This document shows, piece by piece, positions 3,899 to 63,033 of a DNA stretch of 64,000 nt; position 1 is the stretch's first letter, and the number at the start of each line of letters is the position of its first letter. A program made the position numbers and the translations under genes. The notes beneath the pieces were generated by a model that was not told the origin of the DNA, made no database searches, and saw only the letters and a list, made by a program, of their open reading frames with translations. The DNA is taken from sequence record PZ386967.1; one strand, written 5' to 3'. Origin of the DNA: a phage.

Positions 3899-4136
3899 CG
3901 AAAAACAGCCAGCGCTTGTGATGACACCAGAATTATTTTCTGAAATCGTCCTACTACGCGCCGCCCAAACCAAGGATAGTATCCTTGAGACTCTGGCAGC
4001 TGTCTGTGAAGAGAACGACATAGACGAGACCAAAGTCAAAAAGATGATTACAGCACCATTGTTGTCACGACTGACAGCTGAGTGCTCCGATGCGCGCCTG
4101 ATCAAAGACGCGCTAAAGTCTAAGAAATTAGTGTAG
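3891..4136 (+). CDS. hypothetical protein
   Basis: 81-aa ORF in operon context, overlapping upstream stop. Confidence 0.35.
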   Translation: MSDEKQPALVMTPELFSEIVLLRAAQTKDSILETLAAVCEENDIDETKVKKMITAPLLSRLTAECSDARLIKDALKSKKLV

Positions 4137-4143
4137 GTCTATT

Positions 4144-4383
4144 ATGAGCAAAGAATCAATTTACAGCGCAATGAAAGCCTCCGAATTCCTTCCTGGCTCT
4201 ATGCGCTGGCGTGTGGGTAGCCTGAACGAGCATGCCGACCAGACGGATCGTATTCGTTACGTTACCCCTGATGGTCGCTCATATGTCGTTGAGTATCACA
4301 CGCACGACGAAGGCAAGAAGACGTTTTCGGACGTGTTCGACATTATTGAAATTGACCCAGCAAATCAAGTGCTTAAAGGTTAA
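4144..4383 (+). CDS. hypothetical protein
   Basis: 79-aa ORF directly upstream of the gp32 promoter/hairpin. Confidence 0.35.
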   Translation: MSKESIYSAMKASEFLPGSMRWRVGSLNEHADQTDRIRYVTPDGRSYVVEYHTHDEGKKTFSDVFDIIEIDPANQVLKG

Positions 4384-4407
4384 TTCAATGTAAGATCGGG
4401 GTATAAT
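4384..4407 (+). promoter_or_regulatory. TTCAAT-box / TATAAT promoter upstream of gp32, with -10 inside hairpin CGGGGTA-TAAT-TACCCCG
   Basis: TTCAAT at 4384-4389, TATAAT at 4402-4407; 7-bp GC stem flanks the -10; gp32 ATG at 4482. Confidence 0.4.
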
Positions 4408-4481
4408 TACCCCGCTTTGTAGCAAACTGAAATACATGTAACAGAATAGCCCTGAGGGGCGGAAACAGAGGAAATTAAGAA

Positions 4482-5492
4482 ATGGGTAATTTATTCGATC
4501 GTCTGAAAGCATCTCGTGGCCAGCAAACTGAAGCAATGCAGGCGCGTCTTGCACAGCAAGGCCAGAAGTCCGGTTTCCAGAAGGATCCTCGCATCTGGAA
4601 ATGGACTTGGAACAAAGATGGTATCTCCGAGAATATCATCCGCTTCCTGCCAGTCCCGCTGGTAGACCTCAAGGCACAGGAAGAAGGGACGATCGATAAA
4701 GATCAGATCCTCACCCCTTGTGCCATGATCATGAAGCATCAGTTCCAAGGACCTGGTGGTTGGTACATTGAGAACTCACCTCAGACGTTCGGCAACGACG
4801 ATCCGGTGCGCGACCATGACCGTCCGCTGTGGGCGCAGCAGAAAGAAACGAACGACGAAAAGCTGAAGGACATCCTGAAGAAACGTCTACCCAACACCGA
4901 TTACTACGCTAACATTCTGGTGATCAAAGATGTCAACGTACCGGAAAACAACGGCAAGGTCTTCCTGTTGAAATTTGGTAACGCCATCAAGAAAATCCTG
5001 GATCAGGCGCAGAATCCTAAGTTCCCAACCGACCCTAAATTCGATCCGTTCGATCTGTGGGAAGGTGCCAACCTGAACCTGAAGCTCTTTGGCGAGCAGA
5101 AGAAGTTTGGGAACTGGGAAGGTCTGGTGGCAAACTTCAGTAAGGTGGTGTGGGAGAACCCTGCCCCGCTGAGTGATGACGAAGCGTATATGGAAGACGT
5201 CTGGTCTCGTGAGCATAGCCTGTTTGAATTCTTCAATCCGGCTAACTTCAAAGACTACGACACCCTGGAAAAGCGCCTGCGCAAAGTTCTGGCAATTCCT
5301 GATGACCAGCCTCTGGTTGAAGGTGGTGCAGCCACGATGGCTCATGCTCCTAGCACCCAGACTACACATCAGCCAACTGCTCAAGACAGCCTGAAACAGC
5401 AACAGGCCGCGCCGTCGCAGGCTCAGACTCAACCGGATGCCAGAAACACGGCTACCATTGATGAATTCGAGCAGTATCTCAAGTCTAACTGA
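4482..5492 (+). CDS. 32: single-stranded DNA-binding protein (T4 gp32 family)
   Basis: IRFLP, YYANILVIKDVNVPENNGKVF and WEGANLNLK match remembered gp32 blocks; GAGGAAA SD; acidic C-terminal tail. Confidence 0.85.
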   Translation: MGNLFDRLKASRGQQTEAMQARLAQQGQKSGFQKDPRIWKWTWNKDGISENIIRFLPVPLVDLKAQEEGTIDKDQILTPCAMIMKHQFQGPGGWYIENSPQTFGNDDPVRDHDRPLWAQQKETNDEKLKDILKKRLPNTDYYANILVIKDVNVPENNGKVFLLKFGNAIKKILDQAQNPKFPTDPKFDPFDLWEGANLNLKLFGEQKKFGNWEGLVANFSKVVWENPAPLSDDEAYMEDVWSREHSLFEFFNPANFKDYDTLEKRLRKVLAIPDDQPLVEGGAATMAHAPSTQTTHQPTAQDSLKQQQAAPSQAQTQPDARNTATIDEFEQYLKSN

Positions 5493-30105: not shown

Positions 30106-30368
30106 GTCGGGATAATTGGCTTGCAGTTCATGTGGGTTTCTCCACCTTCGATGTTCGGGCTTCCTTGTATAAGAACGTGTTCACAGGAAGCTCTGAACGT
30201 CATTACACAGCCCATCAACACAATTGGCCTGATATAATAACCCGTTTTAGTTTGCTTCACGATACATGGAGAGGAGAAGCGCAGATATGGATCCCCTTTC
30301 CGGTAGCCTGTGATTGTGACCTTCTGCACTTCAGAAGGCACTTTTTGGCCAGGAAAATAAATTTTCAT
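30051..30368 (-). CDS. hypothetical protein (start uncertain)
   Basis: 105-aa ORF overlapping neighbour. Confidence 0.25.
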
Positions 30369-30943
30369 ATTTCAATCCCCAGATTGGTGTATAACAACTC
30401 AGACAGGGTTACAGGACGCTTGAATTGTTCCCAGCTGCAGTTCAGGTATTCGCGCTCTTCACGCATTTCACCGTGAAGATGGCCATGGATATTATACGCC
30501 CAGCGGTCTAATTGATAAGGAACGTGAGTGGTCAGCACACGACCAACCGGAGTATCACGCTCATACATCGCACCAAAGGAGCTAATCCATCCCTCTTGAT
30601 ACAGCTGCATCAACATCTTGAATTTGTCATGGTTGCCTTGCGCCACCCTGATGATAAAGTTCGGTCGCCAGTCATCAGGGACGGGGCGGCGCTTGAACTC
30701 ATCAATATTCCGCTTGGCACCCTCGCGCATCAGGCGAATGAACCCCTCAGCCCCGATGAAGCAGATGTCCCCAGCCAGTTCAAGGACGTCTCGGGACTTC
30801 AGCCCCTGAAAGATACTGTCGATAACTGCAGCATCATGTGCCTCTTGGGTATCGAACCCACGGGGCTTGAAGATCTTCTTGTGTCCGAGGTGAGTGTCGC
30901 CCAGATACTTTACAATTCCTGCCATTATGGTCTCCTCAACCAT
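30365..30943 (-). CDS. calcineurin-like metallophosphoesterase (Ser/Thr phosphatase-like)
   Basis: GDTHLG, GNHD and HGHLHG metal-binding motifs. Confidence 0.55.
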
Positions 30944-31353
30944 TCTAAAATCGGTACGTTCACAAACCCTTTATGCCAGCGATGGGGTTTATGGCCTCTG
31001 TTGTGTTCGAGCAAACACGTATCCGGTGGGACACTGAAGTGGATGCCTTCGATGTCGTAGTAATGCCCATCAATCAGAGTATACACATGACCTTCGGTCT
31101 GACTGTAATGGATCTCTGCTTGGGGATACACGTGCTTCAGAAGTAGAGCAACCTGGTAACACTTCCCGTTCTTCCCCACGTACTCGACATCCACCTGTTG
31201 TGGAAACACATCTTTGATAAGGTTTATCAATCTCGTGATGTCATTTACGACAACCGAACGTTTCATATCACCTCTCCCGAGGATTCGTTGGTGAACCAAT
31301 GATACTCTATCCCGGATATAGAAAAGCCCCTCACGGGGCTTGATCGTCTTCAT
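30925..31353 (-). CDS. hypothetical protein
   Basis: 142-aa ORF. Confidence 0.35.
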
Positions 31354-31633
31354 CAGGGAATATACGCCATCGACCTATTCCATACCACTCACCGATAGAG
31401 TTCCATGTCCTTTCCCCAGGCCAGCCGCCGACCGAGTAGTAATGCGTCACCAGCCGCCAGTAAGGAAGAGAGGCCGTGTTCACGCCGCCGTCGGCCTTTA
31501 GGCAGGCCAAGTACCAATTCGTGAGACTGAACGCCTGAAATAACGGATGAAGGAACATGAAGTACAGGTAGCCCAATATGGCTGTGAATACCCCAGCTGT
31601 TACGATCACACCGATGACAGTGAATACAATCAT
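31331..31633 (-). CDS. small membrane protein (hypothetical)
   Basis: Hydrophobic N-terminal helices. Confidence 0.3.
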   Translation of the reverse strand: MIVFTVIGVIVTAGVFTAILGYLYFMFLHPLFQAFSLTNWYLACLKADGGVNTASLPYWRLVTHYYSVGGWPGERTWNSIGEWYGIGRWRIFPDEDDQAP

Positions 31634-32262
31634 CCCACAACCTCCAGACCCATCAGATCTTCCATGGTCTTCTGAATACGCAGCCAGTCAAGCGCAGCGT
31701 CATAACGAGGGTCATGATAGACCATACCTTCCAGTTCCCACGCCTTGATACCAGCATACCGATCCTGCTGTCCAACACCCTTCAGCCAACTCACGATGTC
31801 GAAGGTGTGGTGGTAGTCCCAAGGCTCGTTGGAGTCCTGCTTACATGTCACCTCAATGATGTGCTGAGCCTTGCGCAGATCAAACAGGTTGCGATCACAC
31901 CAGTCGACCGAGCGCGGGTCTACCCCAAGACGATGACAACCCTTGCGGATTTCATCGGCCAATTGGAAGATAGAGATGTCATCTTCCTTGGGGTACAGAC
32001 TGACTGCGCGAGCCGCATCACACGGGTTACGTTTACCCGCCCCCAACCACCATTCTACCGTCCCAGCGTCCTTCACGCGACCAAGTTCGAGCTGCTCTTT
32101 GACATTCAGCTTAATGAACGTCGTGCGCTCCTCAACCAGCTGCTGAAGAGTATAACGCTTGGTCAGGTCGGCGATGGTGTGCGCCCAAGACAGCATGACT
32201 GCATCATCCCAGCGCCCCAAGGTTTCACTGTCGGCCACAGCCAAAAAATTTGATTTATACAT
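31630..32262 (-). CDS. dexA: DEDD-type 3'-5' exonuclease (T4 DexA-like)
   Basis: Exo I motif AVADSETLG, GTVEWW block and C-terminal HDPRYDAALDWL resemble remembered DexA blocks. Confidence 0.5.
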   Translation of the reverse strand: MYKSNFLAVADSETLGRWDDAVMLSWAHTIADLTKRYTLQQLVEERTTFIKLNVKEQLELGRVKDAGTVEWWLGAGKRNPCDAARAVSLYPKEDDISIFQLADEIRKGCHRLGVDPRSVDWCDRNLFDLRKAQHIIEVTCKQDSNEPWDYHHTFDIVSWLKGVGQQDRYAGIKAWELEGMVYHDPRYDAALDWLRIQKTMEDLMGLEVVG

Positions 32263-32506
32263 GTTTATTCTCCCAACACTTTATTTTGGCTTTTACTGTA
32301 TAATAATTTTCATCAATGAACTTTTTGTTGACGCGCTTAATTTCTATCTCTGGGCAAAGTAACCCTATAGTTTCCCTCAAAATCTGGCTCACCCTGGCCT
32401 GTGAAATACAATAAATTTCTGATACTTCTTTCGAACTAGTTCCAGACATGACAAGTTTTAGAATATTGACCTTTTTATAAAATTCTTGATCAAACGCACA
32501 TATCAT
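32255..32506 (-). CDS. small HTH DNA-binding protein (sigma region-4 / Fis-like)
   Basis: SKEVSEIYCISQARVSQILRE helix-turn-helix. Confidence 0.4.
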   Translation of the reverse strand: MICAFDQEFYKKVNILKLVMSGTSSKEVSEIYCISQARVSQILRETIGLLCPEIEIKRVNKKFIDENYYTVKAKIKCWENKHV

Positions 32507-32509
32507 TAT

Positions 32510-33124
32510 TCACCCCTCCTCGTCGATGATTTCTTGCTCATCTTCGACAATCATGATACCTTCTGCGTCCAGATGAGAAAGTTCCATCAGATCATTATCG
32601 AATCCGTCTCCTTCCCTGATATAGAAGACTGGGACGACACGACGGCGGGTCTCTTCATACACGCTTTCAGAGATTCGATTGATATGGCGTACTACACTGT
32701 AGAGGTTCAGGCCACCAATACCACAGCCGATAGCAGGCAGGCCGACATAGACAGTTTCGTCTTTAGTTGCTTCCACAATTTCATGCACCTGCTCAAACAG
32801 GGTCTGAACAGAACTGATGACAGACGGCATGCGAGCGTTCGGGCCTGGATAAAACTGAGTGTAGAGGTTCGCGCCCCAAACGCCCTTGCTGTGGTCAAAT
32901 GCATAGGACATACCACCCAGGCGTTGCTCTGGACCACGAGGGTCGTTCGCATCGACTTCGCGCAGCGCTGGGAAGTTGTTGCCGATGTGCAGAGCAATGC
33001 CCGCACCCATGGTAGACCAGCAGTTGGCACCGTGGGCAAAGATGTCGATCAGATTGAAGCTACAGGCGGCTTTCAGTAGATCGCCGCCATTGATTACATA
33101 TGTGGTCATGCGTACTGTCTCCAT
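32510..33124 (-). CDS. macro-domain protein (ADP-ribose binding/hydrolase family)
   Basis: VINGGDLL...IDIFAHGANCWSTMGAGIA matches the macro-domain N-A-A-N...G-G-G-V signature. Confidence 0.55.
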   Translation of the reverse strand: METVRMTTYVINGGDLLKAACSFNLIDIFAHGANCWSTMGAGIALHIGNNFPALREVDANDPRGPEQRLGGMSYAFDHSKGVWGANLYTQFYPGPNARMPSVISSVQTLFEQVHEIVEATKDETVYVGLPAIGCGIGGLNLYSVVRHINRISESVYEETRRRVVPVFYIREGDGFDNDLMELSHLDAEGIMIVEDEQEIIDEEG

Positions 33125-33348
33125 TCAATAATGCTGTTGTCAACACATGACACTTGGATGATGCCTGTGCGGTGGTGATAATCAGTCATCTGCATGATAA
33201 AGTTGTTCCCATTGCGGATAATGGTGTTGACAACGATACCCTTGGCAGCAAGGCGTATTACAATGGCAGTGCAAAGACGGTCCATGTAACCGGACACAGA
33301 ACCTGGTTCGAAGCATCGCTCGAACAGATTTTCAAATTCTGGGCTCAT
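33106..33348 (-). CDS. hypothetical protein
   Basis: 80-aa ORF. Confidence 0.3.
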   Translation of the reverse strand: MSPEFENLFERCFEPGSVSGYMDRLCTAIVIRLAAKGIVVNTIIRNGNNFIMQMTDYHHRTGIIQVSCVDNSIIEWRQYA

Positions 33349-33398
33349 TTGATGTTACCAAACAAGAGGTCGAGGCGGTAATAATACCGCCTTTTTCT

Positions 33399-33809
33399 TC
33401 AATAGAGGTCTTCGGAAAAGAGTTCGCGGAATGGGGTTGTCTTCAGGCGCACCTGATTGATCTGTCCAGCTTCACGGGCTACGATGCATGCCTCTTCACG
33501 AGTAAGGAAGTTGCCCTGGTTGTCGATGAATCCCTGTTCGCGGGTATGGGTGGATTTAATGACGCCTGCCTCTTTCAGGATCTTGAGCTGGTTGTTCATG
33601 AATCGGCTGTGGTGACGGTCAGCAACGACGATTACATCACCATATTTGTTGGCGGCAGCGACCACACGACGCTCCCAGGCACCTTCGGCAGGAAGTTCAC
33701 GAGTGTACAGGGGAATCATCGTATCACCGATGTCATCCCCCTTCACCTGTGAGAACAACTTGCCTTCAGTTCCCGTTGGGAGTTCACGAAAATATCCCAG
33801 TAATTTCAT
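33399..33809 (-). CDS. hypothetical protein
   Basis: 136-aa ORF. Confidence 0.35.
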   Translation of the reverse strand: MKLLGYFRELPTGTEGKLFSQVKGDDIGDTMIPLYTRELPAEGAWERRVVAAANKYGDVIVVADRHHSRFMNNQLKILKEAGVIKSTHTREQGFIDNQGNFLTREEACIVAREAGQINQVRLKTTPFRELFSEDLY

Positions 33810-33860: not shown

Positions 33861-34091
33861 CTAGTTCTTCAGATCATGGAAACAGTCGCCGAGGAATTGT
33901 ATTTTGCCGTCGGTCAGGAATAGATGGCAAAATGATGCTGGATCAGTTGCATTCACCAGCAGGCTCGGTGTGAACGTAGGCTCAATAACATTGTTGTTCC
34001 ACGACCACATCGGACCTTGGGTTTCGCCCTTAATGTGATATAGATGAAGCATATCACACCCAGGACAATGAAAATACAAGGAATCATCCAT
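33861..34091 (-). CDS. small Cys-rich protein (hypothetical)
   Basis: 76 aa, HCPGCD...C motifs. Confidence 0.3.
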   Translation of the reverse strand: MDDSLYFHCPGCDMLHLYHIKGETQGPMWSWNNNVIEPTFTPSLLVNATDPASFCHLFLTDGKIQFLGDCFHDLKN

Positions 34092-62058: not shown

Positions 62059-62147
62059 TTGGCGGAAGGTGAAGGATTCGAACCTTCGGGGGCTAAAAGC
62101 CCCACTCGATTAGCAGTCGAGTCCCTTAAACCTCTCGGGCAACCTTC
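62059..62147 (-). tRNA. tRNA-Ser (anticodon GCU), class II with long variable arm
   Basis: Hand-folded: acceptor GGAAGGT/ACCTTCC, anticodon stem CTCGA/TCGAG with loop CTGCTAA, variable hairpin GGGGC-TTTTA-GCCCC, T-arm GAAGG-TTCGAAT-CCTTC, discriminator G, encoded CCA. Confidence 0.8.
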
Positions 62148-62368
62148 CAATTTGGACGGGCTTCACACCCGATTGAGCATTTGATCTGCTGTAGCCCAAC
62201 TCCCCGCGCTTCTCAGCGCCGATTGGTTAACTGGCGACCAGTGCCTTCTGGTTCGATCTCCTGGAACTTTACAGGCTTTGCGCCCGACCATTTCTGGAAG
62301 TTGGGGCATCGTTTCCGATGTGGAGTCACCCCATTTTATACACAGCTGGCTGCAACGCTTACTGTGTT

Positions 62369-62452
62369 TGGTGTGAGTGGATGGATTCGAACCACCGCGC
62401 TGTTACGGGGAGATTTACAGTCTCCTGCATTCGACCGCTCTGCCACACTCAC
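62369..62452 (-). tRNA. tRNA-Tyr (anticodon GUA)
   Basis: Acceptor GTGAGTG/CACTCAC, anticodon stem GGAGA/TCTCC loop CTGTAAA, long variable arm, T-loop TTCGAAT, discriminator A, CCA. Confidence 0.75.
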
Positions 62453-62709
62453 ATTTGGTCTGCCGCTGCGTGCTGGGCCACGCTCGAGGACATCGGCCAT
62501 CCTTCCTCAGCTAATCCACGCAGCGGTAGATTTGTATCAGAGTGTCCGGTGTAGCAACCCGTGAGGTGCGCACTACTGTAGCCTCTACACTCTGAATTTG
62601 GTGGGCGTTACTATCGTCGTCTTCGGATTCCGTTCGGCTATTGGACAGAGGCTTGGAGCTTGTCGGTCGCGTACTTTATGCCTATTCACTTTCGTTCACA
62701 CCCATTGTC

Positions 62710-62785
62710 TGGCGACGATGGCAGGACTTGAACCTGCGACATACGGTTTAACAGACCGCCGTTCTACCGACTGAACTACATCGTC
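62710..62785 (-). tRNA. tRNA-Asn (anticodon GUU)
   Basis: Acceptor GACGATG/CATCGTC, D-arm GTTC-AGTCGGTA-GAAC, anticodon loop CTGTTAA, T-arm GCAGG-TTCAAGT-CCTGC, discriminator G, CCA. Confidence 0.85.
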
Positions 62786-62794
62786 TTGCAAATC

Positions 62795-62819
62795 ACTATA
62801 CCATATAAAGTTTATTGAA
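62795..62819 (-). promoter_or_regulatory. TTCAAT-box / TATAGT promoter positioned to start transcription just upstream of tRNA-Asn
   Basis: Minus TTCAAT 62819-62814, 13-nt spacer, TATAGT 62800-62795, 9 nt before the mature tRNA 5' end. Confidence 0.45.
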
Positions 62820-62956
62820 CAAACATTTATTTTACAACAAACTGTATTGGCGGGGTCTGAGGCTTTTCACCTCACCTGCTGGGTTTGGCCGCCCAGCCGT
62901 TCTCTATGAGGATTCACTGTCCGGACAGCTATCCATTAAACTATCGCCCCTCAATA

Positions 62957-63033
62957 TGGTGATCCTGATTGGGTTTGAACCAATGACCAATGAATTATGA
63001 GTTCACTGCTCTAACCGACTGAGCTACAGGACC
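62957..63033 (-). tRNA. tRNA with CAU anticodon (elongator Met or Ile2-lysidine type)
   Basis: Acceptor GGTCCTG/CAGGATC (one G-U), D-arm GCTC-AGTCGGTTA-GAGC, anticodon loop CTCATAA, T-arm ATTGG-TTCAAAC-CCAAT, discriminator A, CCA; no initiator-specific features. Confidence 0.75.

What the first reader, a model, noticed from the sequence alone, without database searches (positions are those of the whole stretch)
31630..33124. Macro-domain protein, small HTH regulator and DexA-like exonuclease as a block
A macro domain (ADP-ribose binding/hydrolysing fold) is not part of the classical T4 core. From established knowledge, macro domains reverse ADP-ribosylation or degrade ADP-ribose-derived signals, so this is a candidate counter-defence or host-takeover factor. 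It sits with a small HTH protein and a DEDD exonuclease, an arrangement that could represent a nucleic-acid or signal-processing module.
Basis: partly seen in the sequence, partly recalled or inferred. Interest (0 to 1): 0.6.

Follow-up and report, generated by a model that had tools for sequence, protein, structure and literature searches.

The report
Phage anti-DarT macrodomain beside DexA exonuclease
The three genes are real, but the macro-domain protein is a relative of phage T4 Tk.4/AdfM, a recently described factor that protects phages from a bacterial DNA-ADP-ribosylating defence. The "HTH regulator" is a rare small gene inserted at a variable site, and the exonuclease is an ordinary DexA, so this is a new member of a known kind rather than a new module.

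Summary
The window comes from an Ackermannviridae (ViI-like) phage, 97% identical in nucleotides to Escherichia phages AV101 and 4HA11. It is not a T4-type phage.

All three minus-strand ORFs exist at the stated coordinates.

- **Macro protein (32510-33109/33124).** This is a confident macrodomain (AF2 pLDDT 96). Its family profile hits DarG macrodomains best (E 1e-16), then TARG1 and SCO6735. It is a homologue of T4 Tk.4 (33% identity, E 1e-15). T4 Tk.4 was named AdfM in 2025 because deleting it sensitises T4 to DarTG2. The catalytic Lys of DarG and TARG1 is replaced here by an invariant Gln (Q90). T4 Tk.4 has the same replacement, and so does SCO6735, where that Gln is essential for removing ADP-ribose from thymidine in DNA. 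The Ackermannviridae proteins also carry a folded, acidic C-terminal extension of about 35 aa.
- **The 83-aa ORF (32255-32506).** It has only weak HTH signals of the sigma-70 region 4 type. It is a 247-bp insert with 32.5% GC, found in five phage genomes (four public records plus this window) and a few metagenome contigs. It sits in a slot that is otherwise empty or holds an unrelated gene (phrog_5613, 184 records).
- **DexA (31630-32262).** It keeps all five DEDDh catalytic residues.

The macro-dexA adjacency is synteny specific to this lineage. The counter-defence idea is supported by homology. The "module" idea is not.

The parts
32510..33124 (-). Macrodomain protein of the T4 Tk.4/AdfM type. 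It is 204 aa as the longest ORF and probably 199 aa from M6 at 33109. Conserved motifs are H31-G-A-N34-C, N86-L-Y-T-Q90 and G133-C-G-I-G-G. Residues ~170-204 form an acidic, folded C-terminal extension that T4 Tk.4 lacks.
32255..32506 (-). 83-aa ORF (pI 8.9) with a weak HTH of the sigma-70 region 4 / LuxR type at about aa 12-48. It is an ORFan. It starts 3 nt after the macro stop codon and overlaps the dexA start by 8 nt.
32263..32509 (.). 247-bp low-GC insert carrying the 83-aa ORF (the ORF itself is 32.5% GC against 52-54% in the flanks), placed exactly between the macro stop codon and the dexA ATG. Boundaries are ambiguous by 2 nt. The insert is absent from LHE287 and most close relatives.
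31630..32262 (-). DexA-type DEDDh 3'-5' exonuclease, 210 aa. Catalytic residues D11, E13, D128, H183 and D188 align with T4 DexA D7, E9, D119, H186 and D191.
33106..33348 (-). 80-aa DUF7234 gene, first gene of the tightly packed cluster. Its stop overlaps the probable macro start (ATGA).
31331..31633 (-). 100-aa hydrophobic protein (phrog_2531), last gene of the cluster. It has an ATGA overlap with the dexA stop.
31324..31341 (-). Terminator-like G+C hairpin followed by a T-run, at the end of the cluster.
   Evidence: a terminator is annotated at the equivalent position in Klebsiella phage Magnus
33372..33393 (.). Hairpin in the intergenic region upstream of DUF7234, marking the upstream limit of the cluster.

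Best explanation
This is a stretch of an early-gene cluster of an Ackermannviridae phage. The cluster runs DUF7234 - macro - [83-aa insert] - dexA - small membrane protein. The genes are tightly packed and bounded by two hairpins.

Macro protein. It is an orphan, DarG-like 'antitoxin' macrodomain of the T4 Tk.4/AdfM type. It most likely binds ADP-ribosylated single-stranded phage DNA and hydrolyses the ADP-ribose that DarT2-type toxins attach to thymidine. That would restore replication in hosts carrying DarTG2. Catalysis would follow the SCO6735-type, lysine-independent route. In that route an invariant Gln (Q90) positions the distal ribose, and N34 and the two Gly-rich loops hold ADP-ribose. 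Shown here: the fold, the family membership and the motifs. Inferred: the substrate and the phenotype, both by homology.

DexA. It is the ordinary ssDNA-preferring 3'-5' exonuclease used for DNA scavenging and recombination.

The 83-aa gene. It is a small basic HTH protein acquired horizontally. It sits in a variable cargo slot and has moved between Agtrevirus-like and Kuttervirus phages by short-patch recombination. Its target is unknown.

The three genes are neighbours through lineage-specific synteny, not a dedicated functional module.
For: Identity of the phage: 97% nucleotide identity to AV101 and 4HA11.

Macro protein:
- AF2 pLDDT 96.3.
- Foldseek top hits are TARG1, Poa1p, DarG and SCO6735.
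- Family profile against PDB: DarG Mtb 1.1e-16, DarG Taq 5.4e-16, TARG1 7.6e-14, SCO6735 2e-12.
- The only NCBIfam and PADLOC hits are DarG, covering just its macro part.
- BLASTP against T4 Tk.4 gives E 1e-15 and a shared NLYTQFxPGPN motif.
- A T4 tk.4 knock-out is sensitive to DarTG2.
- PhiKZ AdfM removes ADP-ribose from DNA in vitro.
- H31, N34 and Q90 are invariant in 54 family members.
- The profile alignment puts N34 on DarG N22 and Q90 on DarG K80 / TARG1 K84.
- SCO6735 has Gln85 at that same position, and Q85A abolishes dT-ADPr hydrolysis.

DexA.

The insert:
- The indel is precise.
- Its GC is 32.5%.
- tblastn finds it in only 4 of 50,697 phage records, and it also occurs in a few metagenome contigs.
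- It is 97.6-99.2% identical in nucleotides between phages whose flanking genes are 73-92% identical.
- In SilasIsHot the 97-100% identity tract is limited to about 32150-32720.
- The same slot holds phrog_5613 in 184 records or is empty.

Synteny is limited to Ackermannviridae.
Against: - No experiment exists for any Ackermannviridae macro protein.
- The link to T4 AdfM is 33% identity over 115 aa, and the T4 result comes from a preprint.
- The canonical DarG/TARG1 catalytic Lys is missing, so activity rests on the SCO6735 precedent.
- I did not align the window protein to the SCO6735 sequence directly. The Q90 = Q85 equivalence is transitive, through DarG K80.
- The fold is about equally close to Poa1p and TARG1, so other ADP-ribose substrates are not excluded.
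- The HTH call for the 83-aa ORF is sub-threshold in every library, and its AF2 model is confident in only one of five runs.
- Conserved translational coupling of macro and dexA across Ackermannviridae could still reflect a functional link that I cannot test.
Confidence: 0.62

Rival explanations
1. The macro protein is an ADP-ribose-1''-phosphate phosphatase or O-acetyl-ADP-ribose deacetylase (Poa1p/A1pp type). On this view it acts on small metabolites, as the database labels 'phosphatase' and 'O-acetyl-ADP-ribose deacetylase' imply.
For: PHROG 335 is labelled 'phosphatase'. The T4 tk.4 note reads 'contains A1pp phosphatase motif'. Foldseek hits Poa1p at 6.6e-9 and the profile hits it at 9e-11. 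JGI names several relatives O-acetyl-ADP-ribose deacetylase.
Against: The profile is 5-6 orders of magnitude closer to DarG. The only curated-family hits are DarG. The T4 homologue has a specific DarTG2 phenotype. No pathway that produces Appr-1''-p was found next to the gene. The database labels are inherited names, not tested functions.
Confidence: 0.12
2. The macro protein reverses ADP-ribosylation of proteins or RNA rather than DNA. Candidate targets are modifications made by host ART toxins or CmdT-like mRNA ADP-ribosylation. Alternatively it binds or degrades an ADP-ribose-derived immune signal.
For: TARG1, a protein Glu/Asp-ADPr hydrolase, is the top Foldseek hit. SCO6735 acts on both protein and DNA substrates.
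Against: The protein lacks the TARG1 Lys/Asp dyad: Q90 replaces the Lys, and G-G-L replaces L-D-R. There is no evidence for signal cleavage by this clade. T4 genetics point to DarT2.
Confidence: 0.1
3. Macro, the 83-aa HTH protein and DexA form one functional module. For example, the HTH protein would regulate or target the pair, and DexA would trim ADP-ribosylated DNA ends that the macro protein then cleans.
For: The genes are translationally coupled or overlapping. Macro-dexA adjacency is kept in Agtrevirus, Kuttervirus and Taipeivirus. Both DarT2 and DexA prefer ssDNA.
Against: The HTH gene is missing from most relatives and is replaced by an unrelated gene in 184 records. Macro and dexA lie far apart in T4 and are not adjacent in three other phage groups. 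The T4 tk.4 phenotype needed no linked dexA.
Confidence: 0.08
4. The 83-aa ORF is a selfish, homing-like cassette or a sigma-70 region-4 mimic that interferes with host RNA polymerase, rather than a conventional DNA-binding regulator.
For: It is near-identical across divergent genomes, with a short co-conversion-like tract. Its GC content is foreign. Its best hits are all sigma region 4.
Against: It has no nuclease domain, no larger homologue in 1.84 billion representative proteins, and no terminal repeats. The same pattern can arise from ordinary recombination combined with selection. The sigma hits are sub-threshold and generic.
Confidence: 0.15

Closest known systems
T4 Tk.4 = AdfM (anti-DarT factor Macrodomain), from the HIDEN-SEQ preprint 10.1101/2025.11.20.689424
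   Same: Both are single-domain orphan macro proteins of a lytic phage. They share 33% identity (E 1e-15) and the HGxNC, NLYTQFxPGPN and IGxGIG motifs, with Gln at the DarG-Lys position.
   Different: The window protein is about 45 aa longer, with an acidic, folded C-terminal extension. Its genomic neighbourhood differs: it lies next to dexA rather than in the tk-vs region. It has not been tested experimentally.
DarG2 antitoxin macrodomain (T. aquaticus 5M31/5M3E, M. tuberculosis 5M3I)
   Same: These are the best profile and curated-family matches. The fold is the same, the Asn (N22 = N34) is conserved, and so are the Gly-rich ADP-ribose loops.
   Different: The catalytic K80 is replaced by Q90. 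The window protein has no DarT-binding C-terminal domain, since only profile positions ~6-135 of 338 match. It is not encoded next to a DarT.
Streptomyces coelicolor SCO6735 (5E3B)
   Same: It belongs to the same macro clade (profile E 2e-12). It has Gln, not Lys, at the catalytic position. It hydrolyses thymidine-linked ADP-ribose on DNA and protects against DarT.
   Different: It is a bacterial housekeeping or SOS-linked gene. The residue equivalence was inferred transitively, not by direct alignment. SCO6735 has a longer, Lys-rich mobile loop.
Chimallivirus AdfM (PhiKZ gp104), PMC13309987
   Same: It is also a phage-encoded orphan DarG2-like macrodomain that counters DarTG2.
   Different: PhiKZ AdfM keeps the Lys (K78) and is imported into the phage nucleus. 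It belongs to a different branch of the family.
T4 DexA (8KEL)
   Same: The alignment is full-length and all five DEDDh residues are conserved.
   Different: Sequence identity is low (E 2.7e-4 by phmmer). Ackermannviridae DNA carries no 5hmC, so the 5hmC-recognition and temperature-switch properties of T4 DexA need not apply. That last point rests on my own knowledge and was not tested.

Membership tests
Macrodomain fold (Pfam PF01661 clan) | Three-layer alpha/beta/alpha macro fold with an ADP-ribose pocket | tested here: met
   AF2 pLDDT 96.3. 198 PDB macro-type matches at E<=1e-3, with TMt up to 0.82. The Pfam hit itself is below gathering (16.4 against 22 bits).
T4 Tk.4 / AdfM family | Significant sequence homology to T4 Tk.4 with shared signature motifs | tested here: met
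   BLASTP E 1e-15, 33% identity. The NLYTQ, HGxNC and IGxGIG motifs are shared. Both fall in PHROG 335, and relatives are annotated Tk.4.
T4 Tk.4 / AdfM family | Protects the phage against DarTG2; removes ADP-ribose from thymidine in ssDNA | not testable with these tools
   Shown genetically for T4 and biochemically for PhiKZ AdfM. There are no data for Ackermannviridae.
DarG2 antitoxin (NCBIfam NF048014) | Macro domain plus a C-terminal DarT-binding domain; score at or above the equivalog cut-off | tested here: not met
   33.6 bits against a cut-off of 250. Only profile positions 6-135 of 338 are matched. PADLOC DarG matches positions 20-134 of 329.
DarG2 / TARG1 catalytic type | Catalytic lysine (DarG K80, TARG1 K84) | tested here: not met
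   The profile alignment places the invariant Q90 at this position.
SCO6735-type (Gln-type) DNA de-ADP-ribosylating macrodomain | Gln at the position of the DarG/TARG1 lysine, essential for dT-ADPr hydrolysis | tested here: inconclusive
   Q90 aligns to K80/K84. The paper states that SCO6735 Q85 is equivalent to K80/K84. A direct alignment to SCO6735 was not seen, although the profile hits 5E3B at 2e-12.
DEDDh exonuclease / DexA | Asp-Glu-Asp-His-Asp catalytic residues in three Exo motifs | tested here: met
   D11, E13, D128, H183 and D188 align with T4 D7, E9, D119, H186 and D191. PHROG 255 at 7e-53.
HTH DNA-binding protein (sigma-70 region 4 / LuxR-GerE type) | Family-level profile match above threshold, or a significant structural match | tested here: inconclusive
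   All Pfam, NCBIfam and PHROG hits are below cut-off. The Foldseek best E is 0.34, though only HTH domains are returned. Distant HMMER hits are generic HTH repeats.
Homing endonuclease / mobile element | A nuclease domain, or terminal repeats with target duplication | tested here: not met
   No nuclease domain. No flanking repeats. Only a 2-nt ambiguity at the junction.

The most novel reading that the evidence does not exclude
The site between the macro gene and dexA may be a dedicated cargo slot for interchangeable accessory (anti-defence or host-takeover) genes in Ackermannviridae. The 83-aa gene would then be a new, horizontally spreading sigma-region-4-like effector. In addition, the acidic, folded C-terminal extension of the Ackermannviridae macro protein might bind and block DarT directly, acting as an ssDNA mimic. 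That would functionally replace the missing DarT-binding domain of DarG, giving a two-pronged (enzymatic plus stoichiometric) orphan antitoxin.
Probability: 0.12. Interest if true: 0.55.

Novelty: new member of a known kind. Interest (0 to 1): 0.3.

Why it matters
If the assignment holds, it extends the newly described AdfM counter-defence from T4 and chimalliviruses to Ackermannviridae. This family includes phages widely used against Salmonella, E. coli O157 and Klebsiella.

Two practical consequences follow. It predicts that these phages resist DarTG2-carrying hosts, which is relevant to choosing therapeutic phages. It also shows that the T4/Ackermannviridae branch is a Gln-type (SCO6735-like) enzyme rather than a Lys-type (DarG-like) one, and that guides which residues to mutate.

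The variable slot next to the macro gene is a convenient place to look for further small accessory genes.

None of this is very surprising to a specialist. The family is already annotated as 'Tk.4' or 'macro domain' in many genomes, and its function has been published.

Tried and rejected
- **Homologues of the 83-aa ORF.** tblastn against 50,697 phage records found 4 close copies plus marginal hits in Streptomyces phages (E 0.01). The word-indexed search of 5.8 billion proteins found one cluster. Full HMMER on 1.84 billion representatives found only generic multi-HTH proteins. IMG/VR gave one more contig of the same type. No informative relatives emerged.
- **Structure of the 83-aa ORF.** One confident model out of five, and no significant PDB match.
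- **Transposon or homing signature.** No terminal or direct repeats around the insert and no nuclease domain.
- **RNA elements.** Rfam at gathering threshold found only four tRNAs at 62-63 kb and nothing in the block.
- **Promoter scan.** Sigma-70-like sites are no more frequent than in shuffled sequence, and none lies at a useful position for the cluster.
- **Plus-strand ORFs** (32486-33079 and 31714-32253): no PHROG hits, so I treat them as shadow ORFs.
- **ICP1 AdfB** was considered as an analogue. I rejected it because the paper attributes its effect to direct interaction with DarT, not to enzymatic removal of ADP-ribose.
- **Direct residue alignment to SCO6735.** The tool shows only the top five alignments, so I could not obtain it.
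Full report
**What the window is**

The 2.1-kb region around the finding is 97% identical in nucleotides to Escherichia phages vB_EcoA_4HA11 and AV101. It is 81-92% identical to about 200 other Ackermannviridae (ViI-like) genomes, including Kuttervirus and Agtrevirus. So the phage is not a T4-type phage in the strict sense, although it shares T4-like replication genes. Genes for the topoisomerase II subunits lie just upstream on the coding strand, at higher window coordinates. dCMP deaminase, gp4 and gp48 lie at lower coordinates.

**The observation**

Three consecutive minus-strand ORFs occupy exactly 31630-33124:
- a 204-aa ORF at 32510-33124
- an 83-aa ORF at 32255-32506
- a 210-aa ORF at 31630-32262

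They belong to a tightly packed run of five genes:
- The 80-aa DUF7234 gene (33106-33348) overlaps the likely macro start at M6 (33109) by ATGA.
- The 83-aa ORF starts 3 nt after the macro stop codon and overlaps the dexA start by 8 nt.
- The dexA stop overlaps the start of a 100-aa hydrophobic protein (31331-31633) by ATGA.

Hairpins at 33372-33393 and 31324-31341 bracket this run. A terminator is annotated at the equivalent downstream position in Klebsiella phage Magnus. Plus-strand ORFs in the region have no family matches, and no Rfam family lies there.

**The macro protein**

Pfam Macro is only sub-threshold (E 0.009), but PHROG 335 matches at 2.5e-63.

An AlphaFold2 model built on 54 homologues has pLDDT 96.3. 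Its best PDB matches are:
- TARG1 at 3e-9
- Poa1p
- the DarG macrodomains of M. tuberculosis and T. aquaticus
- SCO6735

A profile of the family hits the following in PDB:
- DarG (Mtb) at 1.1e-16
- DarG (Taq) at 5.4e-16
- TARG1 at 7.6e-14
- SCO6735 at 2e-12
- Poa1p at 9e-11

The only NCBIfam hit is antitoxin_DarG (2.5e-8) and the only PADLOC hit is DarG (2.6e-7). Both cover just the macro part of the DarG profile. The protein is therefore an 'orphan' DarG-like macrodomain without DarG's DarT-binding domain.

Relatives are annotated 'Tk.4 protein'. T4 Tk.4 itself aligns at E 1e-15 with 33% identity. The family occurs in 2,681 of 50,697 phage records.

**What is known about the family**

A 2025 preprint found tk.4 as the single T4 gene that becomes conditionally essential on a DarTG2 host. 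The authors confirmed this with a clean knock-out and renamed the gene adfM. A 2026 paper independently named a chimallivirus macrodomain AdfM and showed that it removes DarT2-made ADP-ribose from DNA. That paper cites N22 and K80 of T. aquaticus DarG as the active-site residues.

**Catalytic residues**

In the profile alignment, the family-invariant N34 falls on DarG N22. The family motif N86-L-Y-T-Q90 falls on DarG N-F-P-T-K80 and TARG1 L-I-T-K84. The catalytic lysine is therefore replaced by Gln. That Gln is invariant in all 54 aligned members and is also present in T4 Tk.4 (NLYTQFQPGPN).

This is the situation described for S. coelicolor SCO6735. There, Gln85 occupies the position of K80/K84, Q85A abolishes hydrolysis of thymidine-linked ADP-ribose on DNA, and the enzyme protects against DarT.

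The branch is a Gln-type member of the DarG/TARG1 clade. The Q90 = Q85 equivalence is transitive, because I could not display a direct alignment to SCO6735.

**A lineage-specific feature**

The Ackermannviridae proteins are about 45 aa longer than T4 Tk.4. Residues ~170-204 form an acidic extension: the last 45 residues contain 14 Asp/Glu and 4 Lys/Arg. The model predicts this extension to be folded, with a helix, a strand and a helix at pLDDT 93-98. Its role is unknown.

**DexA**

The protein matches PHROG 255 at 7e-53 and aligns over its full length to the T4 DexA crystal structure 8KEL. D11, E13, D128, H183 and D188 correspond to the T4 catalytic residues D7, E9, D119, H186 and D191. [quoted passage not shown] Nothing unusual was seen in the window protein.

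**The 83-aa ORF**

HTH evidence is weak but consistent:
- Sigma70_r4, GerE and HTH_28 at E about 0.005.
- TIGR02937 sigma-70 region 4 at 7e-5, over aa 14-48.
- PHROG sigma-factor families at 0.002-0.08.
- A five-helix single-sequence model, with only one of five runs confident.
- PDB matches that are all HTH domains but none significant.

The more informative result is its distribution. Alignment with LHE287 shows a precise 247-bp insertion between the macro stop codon and the dexA ATG. The ORF has 32.5% GC against 52-54% in the flanking genes.

By tblastn, near-identical copies occur in four phage records: AV101, 4HA11, KE31 and SilasIsHot. It also occurs in a few metagenome contigs, always at the same site. 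Full HMMER against 1.84 billion representatives found no real relatives.

The ORF is 97.6-99.2% identical in nucleotides among these phages. Flanking genes of the two Kuttervirus carriers are only 73-92% identical to the window. In SilasIsHot the 97-100% identity tract runs only from about 32150 to 32720. That span covers the insert plus ~200 bp of the macro 3' end and ~100 bp of the dexA 5' end. This is a short recombination patch that carried the gene between lineages.

All seven alleles are intact. Six variable codons are synonymous-only and four change the amino acid. There are no terminal repeats and no nuclease domain.

**The slot**

The same junction is empty in a dozen close relatives. 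In EspM4VN, P46FS4, allotria and 184 phage records overall, it holds an unrelated 114-131-aa gene of phrog_5613, whose function is unknown. The site is therefore a three-state variable slot, and the 83-aa gene is its rarest occupant.

**Is it a module?**

Macro and dexA are adjacent in Agtrevirus, Kuttervirus and Taipeivirus. They are not adjacent in the following:
- T4, where tk.4 sits between tk.3 and vs
- Felixounavirus
- Vequintavirinae 4MG
- an Acinetobacter T4-like phage

In Vibrio phage VAP7 they lie about 4 kb apart. Together with the variable middle gene, this argues for lineage-specific synteny in a hyperplastic early region rather than a dedicated three-gene module.

**Verdict**

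The counter-defence reading of the macro protein is supported by homology to an experimentally characterised factor. It is therefore no longer new, and the protein counts as a new member of a known kind.

Three modest additions come from this analysis:
- the Gln-for-Lys catalytic position shared with T4 AdfM and SCO6735
- the acidic C-terminal extension specific to Ackermannviridae
- the three-state cargo slot, with a horizontally exchanged, low-GC, HTH-like ORFan

All substrate and phenotype statements for this phage are inferences and need the experiments listed under next steps.

Noticed in passing
window 32263-32509, and the equivalent junction in L003, L013, L014, L015: The junction between the macro stop codon and the dexA start is a three-state variable slot in Ackermannviridae. 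It is empty, or holds the 83-aa HTH-like ORF (four public phage records plus this window), or holds an unrelated 114-131-aa gene of phrog_5613 with unknown function (184 records).
   Followed up: partly
window 33861-34091 (-): A 76-aa protein matches Pfam DUF6527 (PF20137) at E 1.5e-12. This family is listed as 'BubE' in the newer Pfam naming seen. From my own knowledge, it is linked to bacterial ubiquitination-like operons. A phage copy could be a decoy or inhibitor.
   Followed up: no
window ~32510-32615 (macro residues ~170-204): The acidic, confidently folded C-terminal extension of the macro protein is found only in Ackermannviridae homologues. It exists in at least two sequence variants, the window type and the KE31/P0009 type. 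Recombination breakpoints fall inside or next to it.
   Followed up: partly
window 30365-30943 (-) and 30925-31353 (-): A 192-aa metallophosphoesterase-like protein (phrog_547, annotated 'Ser/Thr protein phosphatase' in relatives) overlaps the end of a YunG-like protein (PF24591, 4.5e-43). Both have unknown roles and sit in the same early region.
   Followed up: no
window 33399-33809 (-): A homologue of T4 Arn.3 (phrog_839; PF26092 T4_Y16D). Different records annotate it variously as 'tRNA processing enzyme' or 'C-N hydrolase superfamily protein'. These labels are inconsistent and untested.
   Followed up: no
window 62060-63033 (-): A cluster of four tRNA genes: Ser-GCT, Tyr-GTA, Asn-GTT and Met-CAT.
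   Followed up: no
L002 (KE31) 822-1382 and L007 (SilasIsHot) 3954-5004: Kuttervirus relatives carry further indels in the same early region. KE31 has an HNH endonuclease gene. SilasIsHot has a different small ORF and an 'alpha hydrolase' in place of the 100-aa membrane protein. This shows the whole region is hyperplastic.
   Followed up: no
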